The translations under genes and the position numbers were made by a program. From positions 1 through 58,057 of the IMG/VR virus record IMGVR_UViG_3300030103_002567: DNA of 58,057 nucleotides. The stretch is one strand, 5' to 3'. Positions 6,472 to 58,057 of this stretch are shown here, one piece after another. Origin of the DNA: a virus. Lineage: Duplodnaviria; Caudoviricetes. Below the pieces are notes generated by a model. The model searched no databases, was not told the DNA's origin, and saw only the letters and a program-made list of their open reading frames with translations. Within the stretch, counting starts at the first letter, position 1; each line of letters begins with the position of its first letter.

Positions 6472-6969
6472 ATGCCAAAGTATAAATTACCAATGAGAGA
6501 TAGGGCCATTGACGTCCTTGGTGTTGTAGAGCCTCAATCAACAATGAAAGGTGGGAACAGACAATACTATACAATGGGTCGTGGAGCGGGCCAGGGTCAA
6601 TCGCCTGAGGGCCACTATAGATACTCTCAAAATATAGGGACTATAGGCTATAAAAATAAAAGGGGTAAAGGAAAGAAAATTAGCGTTACCGAAACAAACC
6701 TTTCCAAGGATGAGCAGTACCTGCCATCTGGTCAAATGAGATATGAGTATTCATTTGGGAAAGGAGGTAGAAGAACTAAAAGCTTTGTGGGAACCTATGA
6801 ACCAGACACTAGAGCTGGAGGTGACGACTACTATGTTGCTACAGGATTTGCATCCAAAAAGGATGAAAGAAAATACAAGAGATTTAGTAGAAAAGTAGAG
6901 CGATTTAACAAAAAGGCTGAGAAAAGAGGCTTGTCTCCTTTAAGCATTCCTGAGTTCAGACTTTTTTAA
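6472..6969 (+). CDS. Hypothetical basic protein (165 aa)
   Basis: ORF in the co-oriented cluster; TAATG-coupled to the next gene. Confidence 0.7.
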   Translation: MPKYKLPMRDRAIDVLGVVEPQSTMKGGNRQYYTMGRGAGQGQSPEGHYRYSQNIGTIGYKNKRGKGKKISVTETNLSKDEQYLPSGQMRYEYSFGKGGRRTKSFVGTYEPDTRAGGDDYYVATGFASKKDERKYKRFSRKVERFNKKAEKRGLSPLSIPEFRLF

Positions 6970-7259
6970 TGGCGGACAAGGCTTCAATGCCCTGTAATAA
7001 GCCTAGAAGGTCAGACCGAGCAGGGAAAAAGAAAATGGTCAAAGCGTGCGAAGGGGGCAAGGAGAAGCTAATCCACTTCGGGGCTAAGGGCTATGGGCAT
7101 AACTATTCTGCTGCGGCAAGAAAATCATTCAGGGCAAGGCATAAGTGTGGTACAGCTAAGAGCAAGCTTACTGCTCGCTACTGGGCGTGTAAGACATTAT
7201 GGGCTGGCAAGGGTGGTTCAACTAAATCATCCCCCAAAAGCAGGAAAGGAAAATACTAG
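6969..7259 (+). CDS. Basic protein of the FG..GY...RKSF.ARH...A.YWA...LW type (possibly DUF5754/DUF6321-like)
   Basis: LIHFGAKGY...ARKSFRARHKC...LTARYWACKTLW; family name from memory, unverified. Confidence 0.7.
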   Translation: MADKASMPCNKPRRSDRAGKKKMVKACEGGKEKLIHFGAKGYGHNYSAAARKSFRARHKCGTAKSKLTARYWACKTLWAGKGGSTKSSPKSRKGKY

Positions 7260-7282
7260 TATATTTACAAAAACATTTCTAA

Positions 7283-8125
7283 ATGGATAGGCAGAGAAGA
7301 TTTAATAGGAGAAACAACCCAAGAAGGGCCTTTAGAACAACCAATCTAAACAGGGTTACAGATGACCAGGGTAATATCATTGGCTATCAGTCCGTAACTA
7401 CTCAGTCTAGGAGAAAAGCCAAGGGCAAGTCATACAGAGAGAAAACATTAACTCCTGTGTTTGATGCTGCTGGAAACCAGGTTGGATTTGAAAGAAATGT
7501 TACAAGATATAGAAACGTCAACCAAAGCAGAAAAGATAGAGCTAGAGGTCGAGGAGTTGCATACACGCCAGGCGACGAGAAAGGAGCTGAGTACGTAGAA
7601 ACAAGAAGCAGAACAAGGCTAAGAGGAGATGCGAGGAATCTTCCTAAGACATCTAGAATGAACACTTCTATTGGTTCTAGAGCAAGGGCTTATGGCGCTA
7701 CAGGAGGATATGGAGGAGGTAGCTACACTCCAAAAAAAGAGGGCATGACTATGAAGGAGGCATTCTTCAGCATGAAGCCTGGGGATAGCATAGATGAAAG
7801 CGCACCATTGGCAGCTACTGGAATGGGCAGATACTCTAGAAATAGAAGAAAACTAGCCAAGCAGGGAGTTGAAGACTTTAATGCAAACAGAAGGCTTGCA
7901 GCTCACTTGAGGACAGAGGGCACTTTGCGACGTTCAAGAAAAATCGAAAGAAAGCTTCAGCGAAGCACTACAAATGTAAACCCATACACAGGCTCTTATA
8001 GAGGAGCTAGGTTTAACCCAGATGCTGGATTCAAGGGTATGGTTAACCTTCAAGGAGGTCCAGTAAGTACCAAAGGTAATGCTTATCAATACTCAAGAAC
8101 CACAGGAATTTACGGAGTAAGATAA
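7283..8125 (+). CDS. Highly Arg-rich hypothetical protein (280 aa)
   Basis: Long ORF with many AGA codons; TATATTTA box at 7260-7267. Confidence 0.75.
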   Translation: MDRQRRFNRRNNPRRAFRTTNLNRVTDDQGNIIGYQSVTTQSRRKAKGKSYREKTLTPVFDAAGNQVGFERNVTRYRNVNQSRKDRARGRGVAYTPGDEKGAEYVETRSRTRLRGDARNLPKTSRMNTSIGSRARAYGATGGYGGGSYTPKKEGMTMKEAFFSMKPGDSIDESAPLAATGMGRYSRNRRKLAKQGVEDFNANRRLAAHLRTEGTLRRSRKIERKLQRSTTNVNPYTGSYRGARFNPDAGFKGMVNLQGGPVSTKGNAYQYSRTTGIYGVR

Positions 8126-52990: not shown

Positions 52991-53027
52991 ATCTATATAA
53001 CGTTTAATTATTCTGTTTATTGTGTTG

Positions 53028-53381
53028 TTAATCTAAGTCGCTATCCATGTCTGCTATTCTAATCTTCATCATCCTTTCGGTATCTGTGTTCTCTCGAATG
53101 AATCTTACTACTGCATCGTAGGTAGACGATAGTTTGTCTTTTGATGTGAAACATTGAGGTTTACTTATCATCTCTCCAAACTCAGCCTTACCTCCTTGTA
53201 TGGTGAAAACATACCCTAAACTTTCTATCTTCTGCACTACAGGTATCAACCAATCCCAAGAGGTGTGAAACTTTAGGTCTAGATAGCACTTGTTCTCTCC
53301 TAACACACCTTCGTAATCGAACCATCCATCTCGCCCAAGAGACATGCCCATAAACTCTGCTATTAACTTATTTTCTTTCAT
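53028..53381 (-). CDS. Phage protein of the N.LIAEFMG...FH.SWDWL.PVV.KI type (ABA-sandwich-like)
   Basis: Recognisable recurrent motif; ATGA coupling. Confidence 0.7.
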   Translation of the reverse strand: MKENKLIAEFMGMSLGRDGWFDYEGVLGENKCYLDLKFHTSWDWLIPVVQKIESLGYVFTIQGGKAEFGEMISKPQCFTSKDKLSSTYDAVVRFIRENTDTERMMKIRIADMDSDLD

Positions 53382-53809
53382 GATTCCTTCTTTTCAATTC
53401 CTTCTTGACTACACACCTCGTCGATGACACCGAAGATGACCTCCATTACATACTCATTGTTCAATGCTCTGCGAATGACATCCATCGCATCCTCATCACA
53501 GCAATCGTAGTTTTGTAAGACATCATCAATGTGCCAAAGGTTTGCCGTTTGAAAGCCCCTATCGGCTAACTCGTTCCGCAAATCCTCTGTGCTTAATTCT
53601 TTCATTCGCCCTCCAAGAATTGGGGTTTCCTCCAATTGGTCTGAAATAATTTGCTGATTTCGAAGAGACAAATCTTGAATCAGCATAACCTCTTCATCTC
53701 CATACAAGTCATCCATAGCCTCTTGCTTATCGCCATAGATGACTACCTCTCCAGTAGTAAAGCGTAGCATATTGTCTAACGCTCTGTTGTAAATAATATA
53801 ATCTTTCAT
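53378..53809 (-). CDS. Acidic two-domain early protein
   Basis: Start MKDYIIY after the promoter motif; C-terminal W.IDDV...DEDA domain. Confidence 0.75.
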   Translation of the reverse strand: MKDYIIYNRALDNMLRFTTGEVVIYGDKQEAMDDLYGDEEVMLIQDLSLRNQQIISDQLEETPILGGRMKELSTEDLRNELADRGFQTANLWHIDDVLQNYDCCDEDAMDVIRRALNNEYVMEVIFGVIDEVCSQEGIEKKES

Positions 53810-53822
53810 AATTGTATAACGT

Positions 53823-53909
53823 TTAATCTTCAATTGTATTGCCCACATGATAAAGTATTCCGAAAATTATCGCTAGGCATACCACCATCAGTATAATTTT
53901 TGATATCAT
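53823..53909 (-). CDS. Possible 28 aa membrane peptide (MISKIILMVVCLAIIFGILYHVGNTIED)
   Basis: ATGA overlap with the upstream stop; single hydrophobic helix. Confidence 0.45.
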   Translation of the reverse strand: MISKIILMVVCLAIIFGILYHVGNTIED

Positions 53910-54238
53910 AGTAGGTCGTTTATGTAGTCAGTAGAAGCGCCCTCGAAGTCCCCATCCCTTGCAATATCTCCTAATATGTTTTCCAGTAGGTCGCAATCTA
54001 CATTGTCGCCTATATATCTATTAAATAGCGTCTCTAACTCCTCGGGCAATCTGTATTCAATGAAATCCTTAATGTCATCATCATCAAGTTCTTCCTCCTC
54101 TTGACCTAGTGTCCGACGTGCTTTGTTTTTTTCCTCATGCTCTTCAATGAAATCATCTTTGAGTGCTTCAATGGCATCCAATACATCGCTTTCATTTAGC
54201 ATATCTCTAATCTCTTCTTTTGATAAATCGTAATTCAT
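53906..54238 (-). CDS. Very acidic early protein (DNA-mimic candidate)
   Basis: Runs such as QEEEELDDDDIKD; very high D/E content. Confidence 0.75.
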   Translation of the reverse strand: MNYDLSKEEIRDMLNESDVLDAIEALKDDFIEEHEEKNKARRTLGQEEEELDDDDIKDFIEYRLPEELETLFNRYIGDNVDCDLLENILGDIARDGDFEGASTDYINDLL

Positions 54239-54280
54239 AATTTCTATTGTTTAATTGTTTAACGTTTAGTTTTTAAGTTT

Positions 54281-54336
54281 ATTAAGACGCTGAGCGTACA
54301 CCCAGCGTTTCGCCTATTGAAGGCTCATCAGTTAAT
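54281..54336 (-). ncRNA. Type I hammerhead ribozyme
   Basis: ATTAA CTGATGA GCCT-TCAAT-AGGC GAAA CGCTGGG-TGTACG-CTCAGCG TC/TTAAT: complete catalytic core, three stems, GUC cleavage triplet. Confidence 0.92.
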
Positions 54337-54564
54337 CTATCCGAACATCATTTCAATCCATCTTTTATGCTCTTTCTTATTGCGCCAACCATTTTGTTTC
54401 GCTTTCTTGTACATAAGTTCATATATAAGGTTATGAACTTCGTCACTTGATAGGACTTCTTTAAGCATAGATTCAGCATCTTTATGGCTCATACGTGTGT
54501 GGTCATAGTCCACCAATACATCATCCATAATGCAGTCAATATCGATTATATCTTGAATTTTCAT
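54337..54564 (-). CDS. Early protein (75 aa), paralogous to the C-terminal domain of 53378..53809
   Basis: DDVL.DYD....DA...L...L..D.V...I pattern; stop codon abuts the ribozyme. Confidence 0.75.
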   Translation of the reverse strand: MKIQDIIDIDCIMDDVLVDYDHTRMSHKDAESMLKEVLSSDEVHNLIYELMYKKAKQNGWRNKKEHKRWIEMMFG

Positions 54565-54584
54565 AATGTTTAATTTGATTGTGT

Positions 54585-54707
54585 CTACATTGTAGACATC
54601 CAGTAATCGGGCATATCTCCACTAAATACCATGTAGAAAATTTTTGCCACCCCATATAATACAGGCGAACCCATAGCCATACCGATAATTATATAAATTG
54701 TGTTCAT
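54585..54707 (-). CDS. Small membrane peptide (40 aa, MNTIYIIIGMAMGSPVLYGVAKIFY...)
   Basis: Hand translation; A-rich leader; hydrophobic. Confidence 0.55.
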   Translation of the reverse strand: MNTIYIIIGMAMGSPVLYGVAKIFYMVFSGDMPDYWMSTM

Positions 54708-54719
54708 GTGTTGTTTAAT

Positions 54720-55016
54720 TTATCTGCTTACTACACTAGCAACCTTTGACGTTCCTGTGTTTATCATTCTTACTACATCCTCCCATTGCTCATCATCTGC
54801 GAACCATTCCAATTCGAAACGCTCGAAATCCATTTGCCAATTGGAAAGGGAGAACCCGTTCCCATGCAATCTAAAATCCCCTTGCTTATCTTTCTTAAAT
54901 GTAAGATGGTGTACATTATCGCACATACAGCCAATGGTCTTAAAAATTACCTCCCTTGCGCTTTCCTTGACCTCAATAGTCGGCGGGTCAAATATTAATT
55001 CTCTATACTTTCTCAT
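54720..55016 (-). CDS. Hypothetical early protein (98 aa)
   Basis: Downstream of the motif at 55036-55061. Confidence 0.75.
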   Translation of the reverse strand: MRKYRELIFDPPTIEVKESAREVIFKTIGCMCDNVHHLTFKKDKQGDFRLHGNGFSLSNWQMDFERFELEWFADDEQWEDVVRMINTGTSKVASVVSR

Positions 55017-55062
55017 GTGTTCTATTTTATATATTAACGTTTAAGATTTTGGTTTATTGTGT

Positions 55063-55449
55063 TTAATCAATGTTTAATTCGTTGCACAATTCAAGACCAT
55101 ACCAATACACTAAATGATTCACTAGCGTTTCGGTATCAAAGTCTGTTCCTCTGTATCTAAGGCGCATCGCCTCTCTGCCAAGTCCATGCTTTTTTAACCA
55201 TTCAATCGAGCGATAATATCCTATTATGTCGGGATAATCTTCAATTTCTCCGAAATGTTCACGTTCAAAATCTTTGCAGATATTTACGGCTTCAAGTTCG
55301 CCTAATCCATGCTCTTTTAACCATTGGCTACTTTGGTAATATCCTATTATGTAGTAATCTTCATTGAACATTTCATGATGGGTTGTCAATCCATCCTTTT
55401 GACTTTCATTGATATGCTCTAGTAGTTCTGTTTTAATTGAATTTTTCAT
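55063..55449 (-). CDS. Early protein with an internal duplication (IIGYY...WLK.HGLG twice)
   Basis: Downstream of the motif at 55469-55494; repeat visible in both DNA and protein. Confidence 0.75.
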   Translation of the reverse strand: MKNSIKTELLEHINESQKDGLTTHHEMFNEDYYIIGYYQSSQWLKEHGLGELEAVNICKDFEREHFGEIEDYPDIIGYYRSIEWLKKHGLGREAMRLRYRGTDFDTETLVNHLVYWYGLELCNELNID

Positions 55450-55478
55450 GCTGTTTGTTTTATATATTAACGTTTAGT

Positions 55479-55694
55479 TTATTCTTTTATTGTGTCCTTT
55501 AATAAAAAATATTTTATACCTCCGCAGTAGATAGCCATTAATAGAATACCTAAGGCGCTAAAAATTAGGCTGTTTAGTTCTGCTGTATTTTCGCATGTAT
55601 CTACCCTCAATCCAGTAAGGAAAAAGAATACAAGGCATACATTTTTCAAGGCTCCGAAAAATTTAGCCGTTGCGCGTGTTATCTTATTATTCAT
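55479..55694 (-). CDS. Two-TM membrane protein (71 aa)
   Basis: Two hydrophobic segments. Confidence 0.65.
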   Translation of the reverse strand: MNNKITRATAKFFGALKNVCLVFFFLTGLRVDTCENTAELNSLIFSALGILLMAIYCGGIKYFLLKDTIKE

Positions 55695-55699
55695 AGCCC

Positions 55700-55867
55700 T
55701 TATATTTTATATCCAACGCAATAAACATCGTTATACTCGTTCAACATCTGCATTAATTTTTTATATGCTTTTGTTGCGGTTGGACGTTTACAAAATTGAG
55801 TCTTGAATAGGTATTCTCTACCGTCTTTTGTCTTATAGTAAAATATATATAGTTGTCTACTTTCCAT
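55700..55867 (-). CDS. Small basic early protein (55 aa, MESRQLYIFYYKTKDG...)
   Basis: Hand translation; downstream of the motif at 55887-55912. Confidence 0.7.
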   Translation of the reverse strand: MESRQLYIFYYKTKDGREYLFKTQFCKRPTATKAYKKLMQMLNEYNDVYCVGYKI

Positions 55868-55963
55868 TGTTTCTATTTTATATTATAACGTATAGTTTTT
55901 AATCTTATTGTGTGCGTGAGTGTGAACACCCCCCCGCAGGGGGGCGCACAAACAAACAAACAT

Positions 55964-56671
55964 CTAATGTTTAAGGATATATATATCCTTTTTCTTTTTA
56001 CCGCCAAACGTGCCACTACATAGACCACATTCAAGACAGGTTTTTTTCTTTCCACTTTCAGCGGACGCAGGGCAATTGAAACCCTCCGAAATTTCCTCAT
56101 CGCTTACAATGAATGAGCGGTAACCCCTAGCCCTAGCCTCTACCATATCTGCGAGGGTGTGTGTTGAGGCCATGAAGCGCGTTTCACTTACTTTGTGCCA
56201 TTGGTGCGTATATCCTGTAACCTTTGCCCTCACGTCATTAGCCAATCTAAAAAGCGCGTCACGTATTGGGGCTTCAAGCGTTACGGCTTCGCCATACGTC
56301 CCGAAGCGAATTAATTTAGGACTAACCTTGTTTTTTGCGAAGTCAATAAATTTCTTGAATTCCTTCGCGTTGAATTCTTTTAACGTGCCGTTATCTAGTT
56401 GTTTTTTAAGGCTTCTAAGTTTAGATTTCAACCCCCTTAGTTGGTCATGTTTGTGAGTATAGCACCCCCCAGACTTGCCGTTGTTTTGGTTGTAACTAAA
56501 GGGGCAATCCATACAATTTTCAGCATCAAGTGTCAAATCATATTTTTTTACCTGCTTTATGCTAAAGTGGTATGTCTGCAATACCAACCCGATACCAATT
56601 TTAGAATTTTGTGAGACTTTCAAGTCTAGCGAATGGATAACTTTCCCGTCTATGTATGCATAAATTTTCAT
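55964..56671 (-). CDS. Cys-rich putative Fe-S / radical-SAM-like protein (gp88-related)
   Basis: NSKIG, C..CPF....GGCY, IRFGTYGE, GYTHQW, FMAS, CPAS...TC..CGLC. Confidence 0.65.
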   Translation of the reverse strand: MKIYAYIDGKVIHSLDLKVSQNSKIGIGLVLQTYHFSIKQVKKYDLTLDAENCMDCPFSYNQNNGKSGGCYTHKHDQLRGLKSKLRSLKKQLDNGTLKEFNAKEFKKFIDFAKNKVSPKLIRFGTYGEAVTLEAPIRDALFRLANDVRAKVTGYTHQWHKVSETRFMASTHTLADMVEARARGYRSFIVSDEEISEGFNCPASAESGKKKTCLECGLCSGTFGGKKKKDIYILKH

Positions 56672-57019: not shown

Positions 57020-57197
57020 AAAAAATCCTCAGCGTTAACGACTACCTGAGGGGTCACCGTGCGCTAACTAGTATAGCGCCTTCCTGTTATCTACTCAAAA
57101 TACCTTTTTACTCTGCAGTCGTTACCTATACTTTTCTAAAGGTCTTAGGGTGTTATATAGTGGATAGGTCAATATTGCCATATTTCCAATGCACCCC
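57020..57197 (-). ncRNA. Candidate structured small RNA (~180 nt)
   Basis: Own promoter motif at 57205-57230, no credible ORF, several stems, terminal CCTCAG/CTGAGG hairpin with a U tract. Confidence 0.55.
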
Positions 57198-57217
57198 GTA
57201 AAAGAACGTTTCTTGTT

Positions 57218-57514
57218 TTATTTTATTGTGTCAAGTTTCACAAAATTTTCATCCCAATTGTCACAAAGAAAAACCAACTCTTCAGACGTGTCCGCCTTGG
57301 CTACAATATTAAACCCGTTAGCGGTTAGTAGATTGAAGGCTTGTTTGTCTGCACCCCCTGCGCTATATGAGAAAGGTACTGTAATGCTTTCGGTTTTATC
57401 TCCTGCCCACCTGCCAGGCTCGAAAATTTTAACCCTTGCGCCTCTATGGTTAGTAGGTCCTAAAAACTTCACTTTGATTTGTCTTAGTGTTTGAACGTCT
57501 GCTAAATTTTTCAT
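57218..57514 (-). CDS. Phage early protein (I.VKFLGPTN.RGARVK type)
   Basis: Recurrent phage motif; downstream of the motif at 57533-57558. Confidence 0.75.
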   Translation of the reverse strand: MKNLADVQTLRQIKVKFLGPTNHRGARVKIFEPGRWAGDKTESITVPFSYSAGGADKQAFNLLTANGFNIVAKADTSEELVFLCDNWDENFVKLDTIK

Positions 57515-57985: not shown

Positions 57986-58046
57986 TCTCGTTGCGTATTA
58001 TTTTGAAACGGGGGGGGTGGGGGTGGTGTCTCGTTGCGTATTATTT
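57986..58046. repeat. 18 bp direct repeat TCTCGTTGCGTATTATTT (two copies) separated by G runs
   Basis: Exact copies at 57986-58003 and 58029-58046. Confidence 0.85.
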
Positions 58047-58057
58047 AGAGGGGGGCG

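What the first reader, a model, noticed from the sequence alone, without database searches (positions are those of the whole stretch)
54261..54339. Hammerhead ribozyme fused to a promoter element between two early genes
Seen: on the coding strand, immediately after the TAG of 54337-54564: stem I ATTAA/TTAAT, core CTGATGA, stem II GCCT/AGGC, GAAA, stem III CGCTGGG/CTCAGCG and a GUC triplet, predicting cleavage between 54286 and 54285. The 3' strand of stem I is also the upstream box of the local promoter copy, which here reads CTTAATAA instead of CACAATAA, so one sequence serves both roles. Known: hammerheads self-cleave to give 2',3'-cyclic phosphate and 5'-OH ends. Inference: the phage cuts its early polycistronic mRNA without proteins, where a terminator would be expected, giving the downstream genes a 5'-OH transcript with a ~47 nt leader and possibly different stability. 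With the promoter array and the sRNA this suggests an RNA-based early regulatory system.
Basis: partly seen in the sequence, partly recalled or inferred. Interest (0 to 1): 0.9.

Follow-up and report, generated by a model that had tools for sequence, protein, structure and literature searches.

The report
Hammerhead ribozyme inserted in phage promoter
A genuine self-cutting hammerhead RNA lies between two small genes of this marine phage, but it is an ordinary member of a very common phage ribozyme type that arrived with a small gene as an insertion into a promoter-like element.

Summary

- **Not chance.** A descriptor scan finds one in the window and none in 300 shuffles.
- **Family match.** A covariance model built from 34 other viral hammerheads, without the window, scores it 57.1 bits, E 6e-14. 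Their helices covary.
- **Rfam.** It falls below Rfam's gathering scores. So do at least 18 other members of the subclass.
- **The "promoter fusion" is an insertion scar.** A related contig joins 54280 directly to 54578, giving a canonical upstream box. So the 75-aa gene plus ribozyme is a 297-nt insert. A metagenome contig carries the same gene inside a ribozyme-gene array.
- **Cost to the ribozyme.** The junction removed the closing G-C pair of stem I. Stem I is now the weakest of 128 sampled, so activity is uncertain.
- **Relatives.** The three related phage records found (82%, 35% and 39% complete) lack the ribozyme.

No RNA data exist for this stretch, so cleavage is untested. Phage hammerheads between genes are known (PMC3088659), and this scan has noted them often on other DNA. 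This is a new member of a known kind.

The parts
54278..54338 (-). Complete type I hammerhead ribozyme (A-1 to the two A after stem I)
   Evidence: Model R1, built without this sequence: 57.1 bits, E 6.2e-14, full length 1-55; next best in the window 10.8 bits. Descriptor: 1 hit, 0 in 300 shuffles.
54332..54336 (-). Stem I, 5' strand AUUAA; G54337 is the sixth position and is mismatched
   Evidence: the non-standard pair is marked in the model alignment.
54325..54331 (-). Catalytic core CUGAUGA (C3-A9)
54312..54324 (-). Stem II (4 bp, G10.1-C11.1 next to the core) with loop UCAAU
   Evidence: The same 25-nt core plus stem II occurs in 16 IMG/VR contigs.
54308..54311 (-). Core GAAA (G12-A15.1)
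54287..54307 (-). Stem III hairpin and U16.1
   Evidence: Predicted in the minimum-energy and centroid folds.
54285..54286 (-). Predicted cleavage site: after C17 (54286), before U (54285)
   Evidence: Position in the hammerhead consensus. Cleavage itself was not tested.
54281..54285 (-). Stem I, 3' strand UUAAU; also the last bases of the insert and the stand-in for the first part of the upstream box
54281..54577 (-). 297-nt insert: short leader, 75-aa gene and hammerhead. The ends are ambiguous by 3 nt (AAT at both ends).
   Evidence: A 1786-nt contig of run X6 joins 54280 to 54578 with no letters between; 3 letters fit either side (tables 5 and 8).
54337..54564 (-). 75-aa ORF upstream of the ribozyme; its stop codon abuts stem I
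   Evidence: Four homologues at 82-92% identity over the BLASTP-aligned part. In L140 the homologue has a hammerhead on both sides.
54578..54583 (-). CACAAT: the severed first part of the original upstream box, now 297 nt upstream
54249..54280 (-). Remainder of the promoter-like element (AAAC...ACGTT at 54265-54261, then an A/T-rich part)
   Evidence: Taken from 54286, the copy scores 29.6 bits on a matrix of 21 canonical copies, rank 5 of 116,038 positions. It is close to a canonical copy in L019.
54239..54285 (-). 47-nt leader that the downstream fragment would carry after cleavage
53906..54238 (-). 110-aa very acidic ORF downstream of the ribozyme
   Evidence: pI 4.05, 37 D+E of 110. The orthologue in L018 is 85% identical.

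Best explanation
The element is a true type I hammerhead self-cleaving ribozyme. It belongs to a subclass that is very common in phage contigs, with these features: an A, then a six-pair stem I closed by G-C, the canonical core, a four-pair stem II with loop UNAAU, a variable stem III, GUC or GUA, and an A after stem I.

It did not evolve in place. It arrived with a 75-aa gene as one 297-nt unit, equal to one period of a ribozyme-gene array of the kind seen in related marine contigs. The unit landed in the middle of the upstream box (CACAAT|AAAC) of one of this phage's gene-by-gene promoter-like elements, at a 3-nt AAT shared by both partners.

Inferred working: transcripts that start at the upstream elements run through the 75-aa gene. 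The ribozyme folds as it is made and cuts itself between C54286 and U54285. That leaves the upstream message with a 2',3'-cyclic phosphate and the 110-aa gene's message with a 5'-OH and a 47-nt leader. The downstream gene would thus keep a defined 5' end although its own upstream box was damaged.

Shown: the motif, its family membership, the covariation, the insertion and the donor-like array. Inferred: transcription through the site, cleavage in vivo, and any effect on stability or translation. The junction cost the ribozyme its closing G-C pair, so it may be slower than its relatives.
For: - **Motif and significance.** (1 hit; 0 in 300 shuffles).
- **Same core and stem II elsewhere.** The exact 25-nt core plus stem II occurs in 16 IMG/VR contigs. 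They carry 7 distinct ribozymes whose stems I and III differ completely yet pair.
- **Broader pattern.** Of these, 143 have stems I and III plus UH, and 128 are distinct including the window.
- **Covariation.** On 34 of these (31 distinct rows), 99.8% of cells pair. 13 of 16 pairs show compensatory changes, against 29-37% paired when partners are slid. Stem II was not selected for pairing, and is 100% paired.
- **Model score.** R1, built without the window: 57.1 bits, E 6.2e-14.
- **Insertion.** An X6 contig joins 54280 to 54578. L018 has a canonical box and no ribozyme before the orthologous gene.
- **Donor-like array.** In L140 the 75-aa homologue (79% identical) lies between hammerheads, with two more downstream scoring 60.4 and 60.1 bits.
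- **Junction position.** The window and L140 agree through the gene's 3' end and the ribozyme, with a compensatory change in stem II. They diverge right after UUAAU.
- **Typical context.** In the family, the upstream stop overlaps or lies within 30 nt of the ribozyme in 102 of 115 cases. The median distance from cut to ATG is 26 nt.
- **Literature.** Clustered phage hammerheads flanking genes cleave in vitro and in E. coli, and a halovirus transcript 5' end maps within 3 nt of a hammerhead site (PMC3088659, passages).
Against: - **No RNA evidence.** No listed run that holds this stretch is RNA, so neither transcription nor cleavage is shown.
- **Weak stem I.** It is five A-U pairs plus a G.A mismatch. 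Its predicted pairing probability is 0.07, the lowest of 128 (median 0.92). The hammerhead fold lies 1.6 kcal/mol above the minimum-energy fold.
- **Rare closing pair.** Only 1 of 127 relatives has a G.A closing pair.
- **Rfam.** Gathering scores are not reached (25.3 of 56.3; 15.7 of 34).
- **Relatives.** The three related records lack any hammerhead (G001 82% complete, G002 35%, G003 39%). The ribozyme is therefore dispensable in this phage group.
- **One contig.** The insertion rests on one Logan contig that is only about 87% identical over the 110-aa gene.
- **Selection bias.** The sequences counted for covariation passed my filter of at least 3 pairs in stems I and III, although 143 of 147 passed.
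Confidence: 0.7

Rival explanations
1. Relic ribozyme. The sequence is a hammerhead by descent, but the insertion junction destroyed the closing pair of stem I. It no longer cleaves to any useful extent, and the 110-aa gene is expressed from its own, still largely intact, promoter-like element.
For: - Stem I has the lowest predicted pairing probability of 128 (0.07).
- A G.A closing pair occurs in only 1 of 127 relatives.
- The promoter-like element still scores 29.6 bits, rank 5 of 116,038.
- Relatives do without the ribozyme.
Against: - Every core nucleotide and every pair next to the core is intact.
- Identical copies occur in contigs from other samples: X5 record 1 and L139.
- Rfam's RAGATH-1 hammerhead consensus also has a five-pair A/U-rich stem I.
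- Nearest-neighbour energies ignore the tertiary contacts that drive natural hammerheads (PMC3088659).
Confidence: 0.2
2. The overlap is a selected dual-use sequence in which one stretch is both stem I and the promoter's upstream box, as part of an RNA-based early control system.
For: - The chimeric stretch keeps 8 of 10 positions of the box and 5 of 6 pairs of stem I.
- The copy remains a strong match to the element.
Against: - An uninterrupted canonical box exists at this very site in a relative, and before the orthologous gene in L018.
- A scan of IMG/VR for a hammerhead fused to the element in this register gave 4 chance hits, none a hammerhead.
- The typical 3' end of this ribozyme type already resembles the box by chance. 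L010 shares 7 of 10 positions.
- Both elements lost conserved positions at the joint.
Confidence: 0.08
3. One ribozyme, many targets. The hammerhead or its arms act in trans on sites repeated before the other early genes. This idea came from earlier notes of this scan on other phages.
For: Only the analogy with notes e1-3293241, e1-6200246 and e1-6240230.
Against: The substrate side (end of stem III, GUC, stem I 3' strand; 12 nt) has 46 matches with up to 3 mismatches, against 51.9 expected. The only exact one is the cis site. The repeated boxes have A, not U, at the position of U16.1.
Confidence: 0.01
4. Chance resemblance to a hammerhead.
For: Below Rfam gathering scores.
Against: 0 hits in 300 shuffles. 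57.1 bits on an independent model. An orthologous ribozyme with a compensatory change in L140. Other members of the subclass also fall below Rfam's thresholds.
Confidence: 0.01

Closest known systems
Clustered type I/II/III hammerhead ribozymes flanking single genes in phages and prophages (Perreault et al. 2011, PMC3088659; passages read)
   Same: Canonical core, three helices, and a position between small phage genes on the sense strand. Arrays of several ribozymes occur in relatives (L140, L010, L091). The proposed role is cutting long phage transcripts into gene-length messages.
   Different: Here a single copy lies in a phage that otherwise marks each gene with a promoter-like element. 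The copy can be traced to a 297-nt insertion whose junction removed the closing pair of stem I. I could not see that paper's alignments (supplements closed), so I cannot say whether this exact subclass is in them.
Rfam RF00163 Hammerhead_1 (type I) and clan CL00010
   Same: Same topology (stem I open), same core, and a similar A-rich loop II in the consensus.
   Different: Score 15.7 bits against a gathering score of 34. Stem III here is much longer than in the model. At least 18 other hammerheads of the subclass in 12 loci also miss every gathering score.
Rfam RF03152 RAGATH-1 hammerhead
   Same: Best Rfam match (25.3 bits, E 0.029 on 301 nt). Five-pair A/U-rich stem I in the consensus.
   Different: Below the gathering score of 56.3. 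The model's extra 5' hairpin and its reduced stem II are not matched; stem II here is a regular four-pair helix. Not a member. The original description is recalled, not read: one search listed only papers that cite the name.
Hammerheads just upstream of ORFs in RNA viruses, proposed to help translation initiation (PMC13725137; passages read)
   Same: Type I hammerhead with a long helix III filling a short gap between ORFs, with the cut a few to tens of nt before the next start codon.
   Different: Those are eukaryotic RNA viruses. Here the genome is a DNA phage, probably of Flavobacteriia. No translation data exist for it.
Promoter-stem-loop cassettes (PeSL) that mediate modular shuffling in T4-type phages
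   Same: Short conserved intergenic elements that flank small early genes and act as joints of gene-sized mosaic units.
   Different: Here the conserved joint of the donor array is a ribozyme. Integration used only a 3-nt match. No circular intermediates were looked for.

Membership tests
Hammerhead ribozyme, type I | Conserved core C3 U4 G5 A6 N7 G8 A9, G12 A13 A14, A15.1-U16.1, H17 | tested here: met
   All present: CUGAUGA 54331-54325, GAAA 54311-54308, U54287, C54286.
Hammerhead ribozyme, type I | Three helices around the core with stem I open, and standard pairs next to the core (10.1-11.1, 1.1-2.1, 15.1-16.1; criteria quoted from PMC3088659) | tested here: met
   G54324-C54312, A54332-U54285, A54308-U54287. 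Stem II has 4 pairs, stem III 9, stem I 5.
Hammerhead ribozyme, type I | Helices supported by covariation in relatives | tested here: met
   13 of 16 pairs show compensatory changes, with 99.8% of cells paired, on 31 distinct rows. The orthologous L140 ribozyme has a compensatory change in stem II. Caveat: the rows passed a filter of at least 3 pairs in stems I and III; 143 of 147 passed.
Hammerhead ribozyme, type I | Reaches the Rfam gathering score (RF00163) | tested here: not met
   15.7 bits against 34; no hit at gathering. The same holds for at least 18 other members in 12 loci, so this reflects the model's coverage.
Hammerhead ribozyme, type I | Tertiary contact between stem I and loop II needed for fast cleavage at low Mg2+ | tested here: inconclusive
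   The subclass features are present: loop UNAAU, an A before stem I and an A after it. The sixth pair of stem I is G.A instead of G-C. The contact itself cannot be computed here.
Hammerhead ribozyme, type I | Site-specific self-cleavage giving 2',3'-cyclic phosphate and 5'-OH ends | not testable with these tools
   No RNA run holds the stretch.
Phage subclass modelled here (R1) | A, six-pair stem I closed by G-C, four-pair stem II, loop UNAAU, A after stem I | tested here: met
   57.1 bits, full-length alignment. One deviation: the closing pair is G.A, seen in 1 of 127 others; G-C 121, A-U 5.
RAGATH-1 hammerhead (RF03152) | Gathering score; extra 5' hairpin; reduced stem II | tested here: not met
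   25.3 bits against 56.3. The 5' hairpin region aligns poorly, and stem II is a regular helix.
Repeated promoter-like element CACAATAA-N13-ACGTT of this phage group | Upstream box CACAATAA | tested here: not met
   Reads CTTAATAA, so 2 of 8 positions differ. It is the only copy in the listing without C at the third position.
Repeated promoter-like element CACAATAA-N13-ACGTT of this phage group | 13-nt spacing, ACGTT box and A/T-rich tail before the ATG | tested here: met
   29.6 bits on a matrix of 21 canonical copies, rank 5 of 116,038 positions.
Repeated promoter-like element CACAATAA-N13-ACGTT of this phage group | Initiates transcription | not testable with these tools
   No RNA data. No RNA polymerase or sigma factor was recognised in the 3132-aa protein.
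Intrinsic terminator | G+C-rich hairpin followed by a U run | tested here: not met
   0 terminator-like sites in 53800-55200. Stem III is followed by UCUUAAUAAAC.

The most novel reading that the evidence does not exclude
Ribozyme-gene units are mobile cassettes in phages of marine Flavobacteriia. One period of a hammerhead-gene array leaves the array, for instance as a circle made by recombination between neighbouring ribozyme copies. It then integrates elsewhere at a few matching bases. Because it brings its own 5'-end-forming ribozyme, the genes around the landing site keep defined message ends even when a promoter is hit. In this phage group, ribozymes and gene-by-gene promoters would then be interchangeable ways of punctuating early transcripts. 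What fits: the insert is exactly one array period. Joining its last bases to its first restores a perfect six-pair stem I followed by AA. AAT stands at both ends. L140 uses hammerheads where the window uses promoter-like elements.
Probability: 0.12. Interest if true: 0.6.

Novelty: new member of a known kind. Interest (0 to 1): 0.35.

Why it matters
Phage hammerheads have been catalogued since 2011, but their function is still called unproven in the reviews I read (PMC6765202). This case adds three modest but usable points.

- **A natural before-and-after pair.** The same site exists with and without the ribozyme cassette, resolved to the base. This shows that ribozyme-gene units move between phages, and it shows what a landing costs both partners.
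- **A gap in Rfam.** The whole subclass escapes Rfam 15's gathering thresholds, so phage annotation pipelines will miss it. In the GenBank record of a cultured relative, a spurious ORF is annotated over it.
- **A testable system.** The cultured Flavobacterium phage vB_FspP_elemoA_7-9A carries the same type of ribozyme. Cleavage and its effect on message stability or translation could be tested in a real host that largely lacks Shine-Dalgarno-led initiation (that last point is recalled).

Tried and rejected
- **Close phage relatives in GenBank.** Megablast of 53000-56000 against GenBank phages found no match.
- **Ribozyme against GenBank phages.** blastn of the 61-nt ribozyme gave 5 records, all E of 2 or more, inside unrelated coding genes. 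These are chance hits.
- **Relatives of the 75-aa protein in IMG/VR.** Peptide patterns found none.
- **Stem III plus stem I pattern in IMG/VR.** 0 hits.
- **Empty-site pattern in IMG/VR.** It found only the L019 record again, as L143.
- **Hammerhead-box fusion pattern.** 4 hits, none with a hammerhead core and none matched by R1.
- **RNA evidence.** No RNA holder is listed among the 20 runs. Only DNA contigs could be laid, so nothing can be said on expression or ends.
- **Parts without cover.** In one search these say nothing. The second joint, 54283 to 55053, has a side of only 24 letters, and I did not rely on it.
- **The 3132-aa protein.** No PHROG, Pfam or PDB-sequence match, so the idea of an injected RNA polymerase stays open.
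- **The 75-aa and 110-aa proteins.** Pfam gave nothing above cut-off.
- **Trans-target model.** Rejected.
- **Terminator reading.** Rejected.
- **Sigma-70-type promoter scan.** 4 sites against 6.2 expected, so it is uninformative.
- **Not seen.** Dataset S1 and Figure S5 of PMC3088659 may already hold this subclass and its tertiary contact. One search for RAGATH-1 listed no paper that describes the motif. What I say of it beyond the Rfam model is recalled.

Full report
**What is there.** The window is a whole IMG/VR virus record of 58,057 nt, rated 100% complete by CheckV. On the minus strand, directly after the TAG of ORF 54337-54564, the sequence has every element of a type I hammerhead:
- stem I, AUUAA (54336-54332) with UUAAU (54285-54281)
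- core CUGAUGA (54331-54325)
- stem II, GCCU with AGGC, loop UCAAU (54324-54312)
- GAAA (54311-54308)
- stem III, 7-9 pairs (54307-54288)
- U54287 and C54286

The predicted cut lies between 54286 and 54285, 47 nt before the ATG of ORF 53906-54238.

**Is it more than chance?** A descriptor requiring the core, GAAA, UH and three helices finds exactly this one site on both strands of the window. It finds none in 300 dinucleotide-preserving shuffles, with loose (4/3/3 pairs) or strict (5/4/4) settings.

Rfam at gathering thresholds reports only a tRNA at 1775-1848. With permissive thresholds on 301 nt, the site matches RAGATH-1-hammerhead at 25.3 bits (gathering 56.3, E 0.029) and Hammerhead_1 at 15.7 bits (gathering 34, E 0.57). 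That shortfall is a property of the models, not of this site:
- 12 loci that together hold at least 18 complete hammerheads of the same subclass give no match at gathering thresholds (the count comes).
- Their sub-threshold scores are alike: 25.9-30.1 bits for RAGATH-1-hammerhead and 19.9 for Hammerhead_1.

**Comparative evidence.** The exact 25 nt from CUGAUGA to GAAAC occur in 16 IMG/VR contigs. These hold 7 distinct ribozymes whose stems I and III are entirely different from the window's, yet complementary.

Of 147 matches, 143 have stems I and III plus UH, and 128 are distinct including the window. Among the 127 others:
- an A precedes stem I in 126
- the sixth pair of stem I is G-C in 121, A-U in 5 and G.A in 1
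- an A follows stem I in all 127
- H17 is C in 116 and A in 11

On a gap-free alignment of 34 of them (31 distinct rows), 99.8% of cells pair. 13 of 16 pairs carry compensatory changes. Sliding the partners by 1-3 columns drops pairing to 29-37%. These rows had passed my filter for stems I and III. Stem II had not been filtered, and it is 100% paired, with 3 of 4 pairs covarying.

A covariance model built from these 34 sequences, without the window, scores the window site at 57.1 bits, E 6.2e-14, over its full length. The next best hit in the window scores 10.8 bits. I take the identity as settled.

**The phage and its relatives.** PHROGs name a large terminase, a portal, a GroEL-like chaperonin and a large virion protein. 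The terminase is 70% identical to that of an uncultured podovirus. It is 45% identical to those of the Flavobacterium phages vB_FspP_elemo, and 15 Cellulophaga phage records are among the 89 with a match. The host is therefore probably a member of the Flavobacteriia.

Three related IMG/VR records were found through neighbouring genes. None has a hammerhead: G001 is 82% complete, G002 35% and G003 39% (loci searched with filters off).

In L018 the orthologue of the 110-aa gene (85% identical) is preceded by a canonical copy of the repeated element and follows a different gene. The ribozyme is therefore not a conserved feature of this phage group.

**The repeated element.** About ten minus-strand ORFs between 53000 and 57850 are preceded by CACAATAA, 13 nt, ACGTT and an A/T-rich stretch that ends 13-28 nt later at the ATG. 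The same element heads the small genes of L018 and L019. Its position, fixed spacing and conservation next to changing genes fit a promoter. No transcript data exist, and I recognised no polymerase or sigma factor, so "promoter" and "early" remain assumptions.

The copy next to the ribozyme reads CTTAATAA. It is otherwise a strong match, at 29.6 bits on a matrix of 21 canonical copies, rank 5 of 116,038 positions.

**Why the two elements overlap.** I laid DNA contigs from four runs of four studies on 53000-55500. One 1786-nt contig of run X6 aligns to 53805-54280 and then continues without a gap at 54578-54712. It skips 297 nt, and 3 letters fit either side (tables 5 and 8). In that relative, CACAAT is followed directly by AAAC, which makes a canonical box.

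In the window, the leader, the 75-aa gene and the ribozyme (54577-54281) sit inside that box. CACAAT is left behind at 54583-54578, and the ribozyme's UUAAU stands in for it.

The insert is one period of a ribozyme-gene array. Its first bases (CAA...) are what follows stem I in the family, so placing its end before its start restores a six-pair stem I with G-C and AA.

A search with an alignment of the 75-aa protein and four homologues found the metagenome contig L140. There the homologue (79% identical) has a hammerhead immediately upstream and another downstream, with a third one gene further on, about 260 nt apart (60.4 and 60.1 bits). L140 shares other small genes with the window, judged by eye from the ORF lists.

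The window and L140 align through the 3' end of the gene and the ribozyme, with a compensatory change in stem II. They part exactly after UUAAU.

No other hammerhead fused to the element in this register exists in IMG/VR: 4 pattern hits, none a hammerhead.

The simplest account is a one-off insertion at a 3-nt match, not a designed dual-use sequence. The insertion direction is favoured because the uninterrupted site is the canonical form that all other copies share. It rests on one contig that is only about 87% identical over the 110-aa gene.

**Does it work?** This is inference. The ribozyme lies in the sense strand of a tight run of genes. No terminator-like site occurs between 53800 and 55200. 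The 75-aa gene has no complete element of its own, so transcripts from the elements at 55061 or further upstream should run through it.

The context is typical of the family. The upstream stop overlaps the ribozyme in 76 of 115 cases and lies within 30 nt in 26 more. The distance from cut to ATG has a median of 26 nt and is 60 nt or less in 83 of 111 cases. Phage and prophage hammerheads in such arrangements cleave in vitro and in E. coli, and a halovirus transcript 5' end maps within 3 nt of a hammerhead site (PMC3088659, passages).

Against this, stem I here is five A-U pairs plus a G.A mismatch:
- Its predicted pairing probability is 0.07, the lowest of 128 (median 0.92).
- The hammerhead fold lies 1.6 kcal/mol above the minimum-energy fold.
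- The minimum-energy fold forms stems II and III but not stem I.

Such energies ignore tertiary contacts, so I put cleavage in vivo at roughly 60-70%. A trans-acting role, suggested by earlier notes of this scan on other phages, finds no support: 46 near-matches to the substrate side against 51.9 expected.

**Comparison with what is known.** Hammerheads between phage genes, often several in a row, were described in 2011. Processing of long transcripts was proposed then (PMC3088659). A 2019 review still calls the function undefined (PMC6765202). Methods to map the resulting ends exist (PMC8782182). Ribozymes just upstream of ORFs in RNA viruses have been linked to translation (PMC13725137).

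This scan has noted phage hammerheads many times on other DNA: 719 notes in at least 612 genomes hold the search words. The present case is a new member of a known kind. I could not open supplements, so I cannot say whether this subclass is already in the published alignments.

**What is worth keeping.**
- The base-resolved empty and filled sites, with a donor-like array.
- The gap in Rfam's coverage of the subclass.
- A cultured relative with the same type of ribozyme: MT497017.1 17288-17348, minus strand, 55.4 bits. It lies between two small genes, and a plus-strand hypothetical ORF is annotated across it.

Noticed in passing
L010, L140, L091, L050, L146, L022, L021, L053, L055, L039, L078, L097: Rfam 15 at gathering thresholds reports none of the at least 18 complete hammerheads in these 12 loci. 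Their best sub-threshold scores are 26-30 bits for RAGATH-1-hammerhead and about 20 for Hammerhead_1. The subclass is invisible to standard annotation.
   Followed up: partly
L146 1504-1584 (MT497017.1 17288-17348, minus strand): The cultured Flavobacterium phage vB_FspP_elemoA_7-9A has a hammerhead of the same subclass (55.4 bits) between two small minus-strand genes. The record annotates a plus-strand hypothetical ORF (elemo79Aphanotate_43) across it and no RNA feature.
   Followed up: partly
L140 1-600: Three hammerheads about 260 nt apart, one before each of three small genes. The second and third share stem III and the following leader almost exactly. ORF 342-557 reads through stem I and the core of the third ribozyme and stops inside loop II.
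   Followed up: partly
L010 169-830 (G004 6770-7438): Three hammerheads within about 700 nt, two of them followed by the same roughly 25-nt A/U-rich leader before the ATG.
   Followed up: no
window 53906-54238 (-): The gene just downstream of the ribozyme encodes a very acidic 110-aa protein (pI 4.05, 37 D+E). It could be a DNA mimic or anti-restriction protein. Perreault et al. noted ardA directly downstream of hammerheads. Its only Pfam hit, EcoR124_C, is below the cut-off.
   Followed up: no
window 55925-55950 (-); L018 2735-2755: A G+C-rich hairpin (a run of C, a 3-nt loop, a run of G) stands just upstream of one copy of the promoter-like element. It is conserved in the relative L018. Its role is unknown.
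   Followed up: no
window 57020-57230 (-): One copy of the promoter-like element is followed by about 180 nt without a sizeable ORF and then a hairpin with a U run.
   Followed up: no
window 53000-55500, contigs of runs X6 and X8: Relatives differ from the window by whole-gene replacements whose joints lie at or near the promoter-like elements. Examples: 53385 to 53805 with 143 other letters, and 54712 to 55468. A roughly 110-nt internal difference lies in the 128-aa gene at 55137-55250, which holds an internal repeat.
   Followed up: no
L141 1258-1397: Another homologue of the 75-aa gene, with a longer N-terminus, is preceded not by a ribozyme but by a stretch containing TATATTTG. This resembles the TAnnTTTG -7 box of Bacteroidota promoters (that motif is recalled). 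The contig ends 4 nt after the gene.
   Followed up: no
window 57986-58049: Two 21-nt direct repeats 43 nt apart, and C-rich tracts, lie at the right end of the record. They are possibly related to the genome terminus.
   Followed up: no
window 67 (+): The only plus-strand position with a sizeable score on the promoter-element matrix (14.5 bits) lies at the left end of the record.
   Followed up: no
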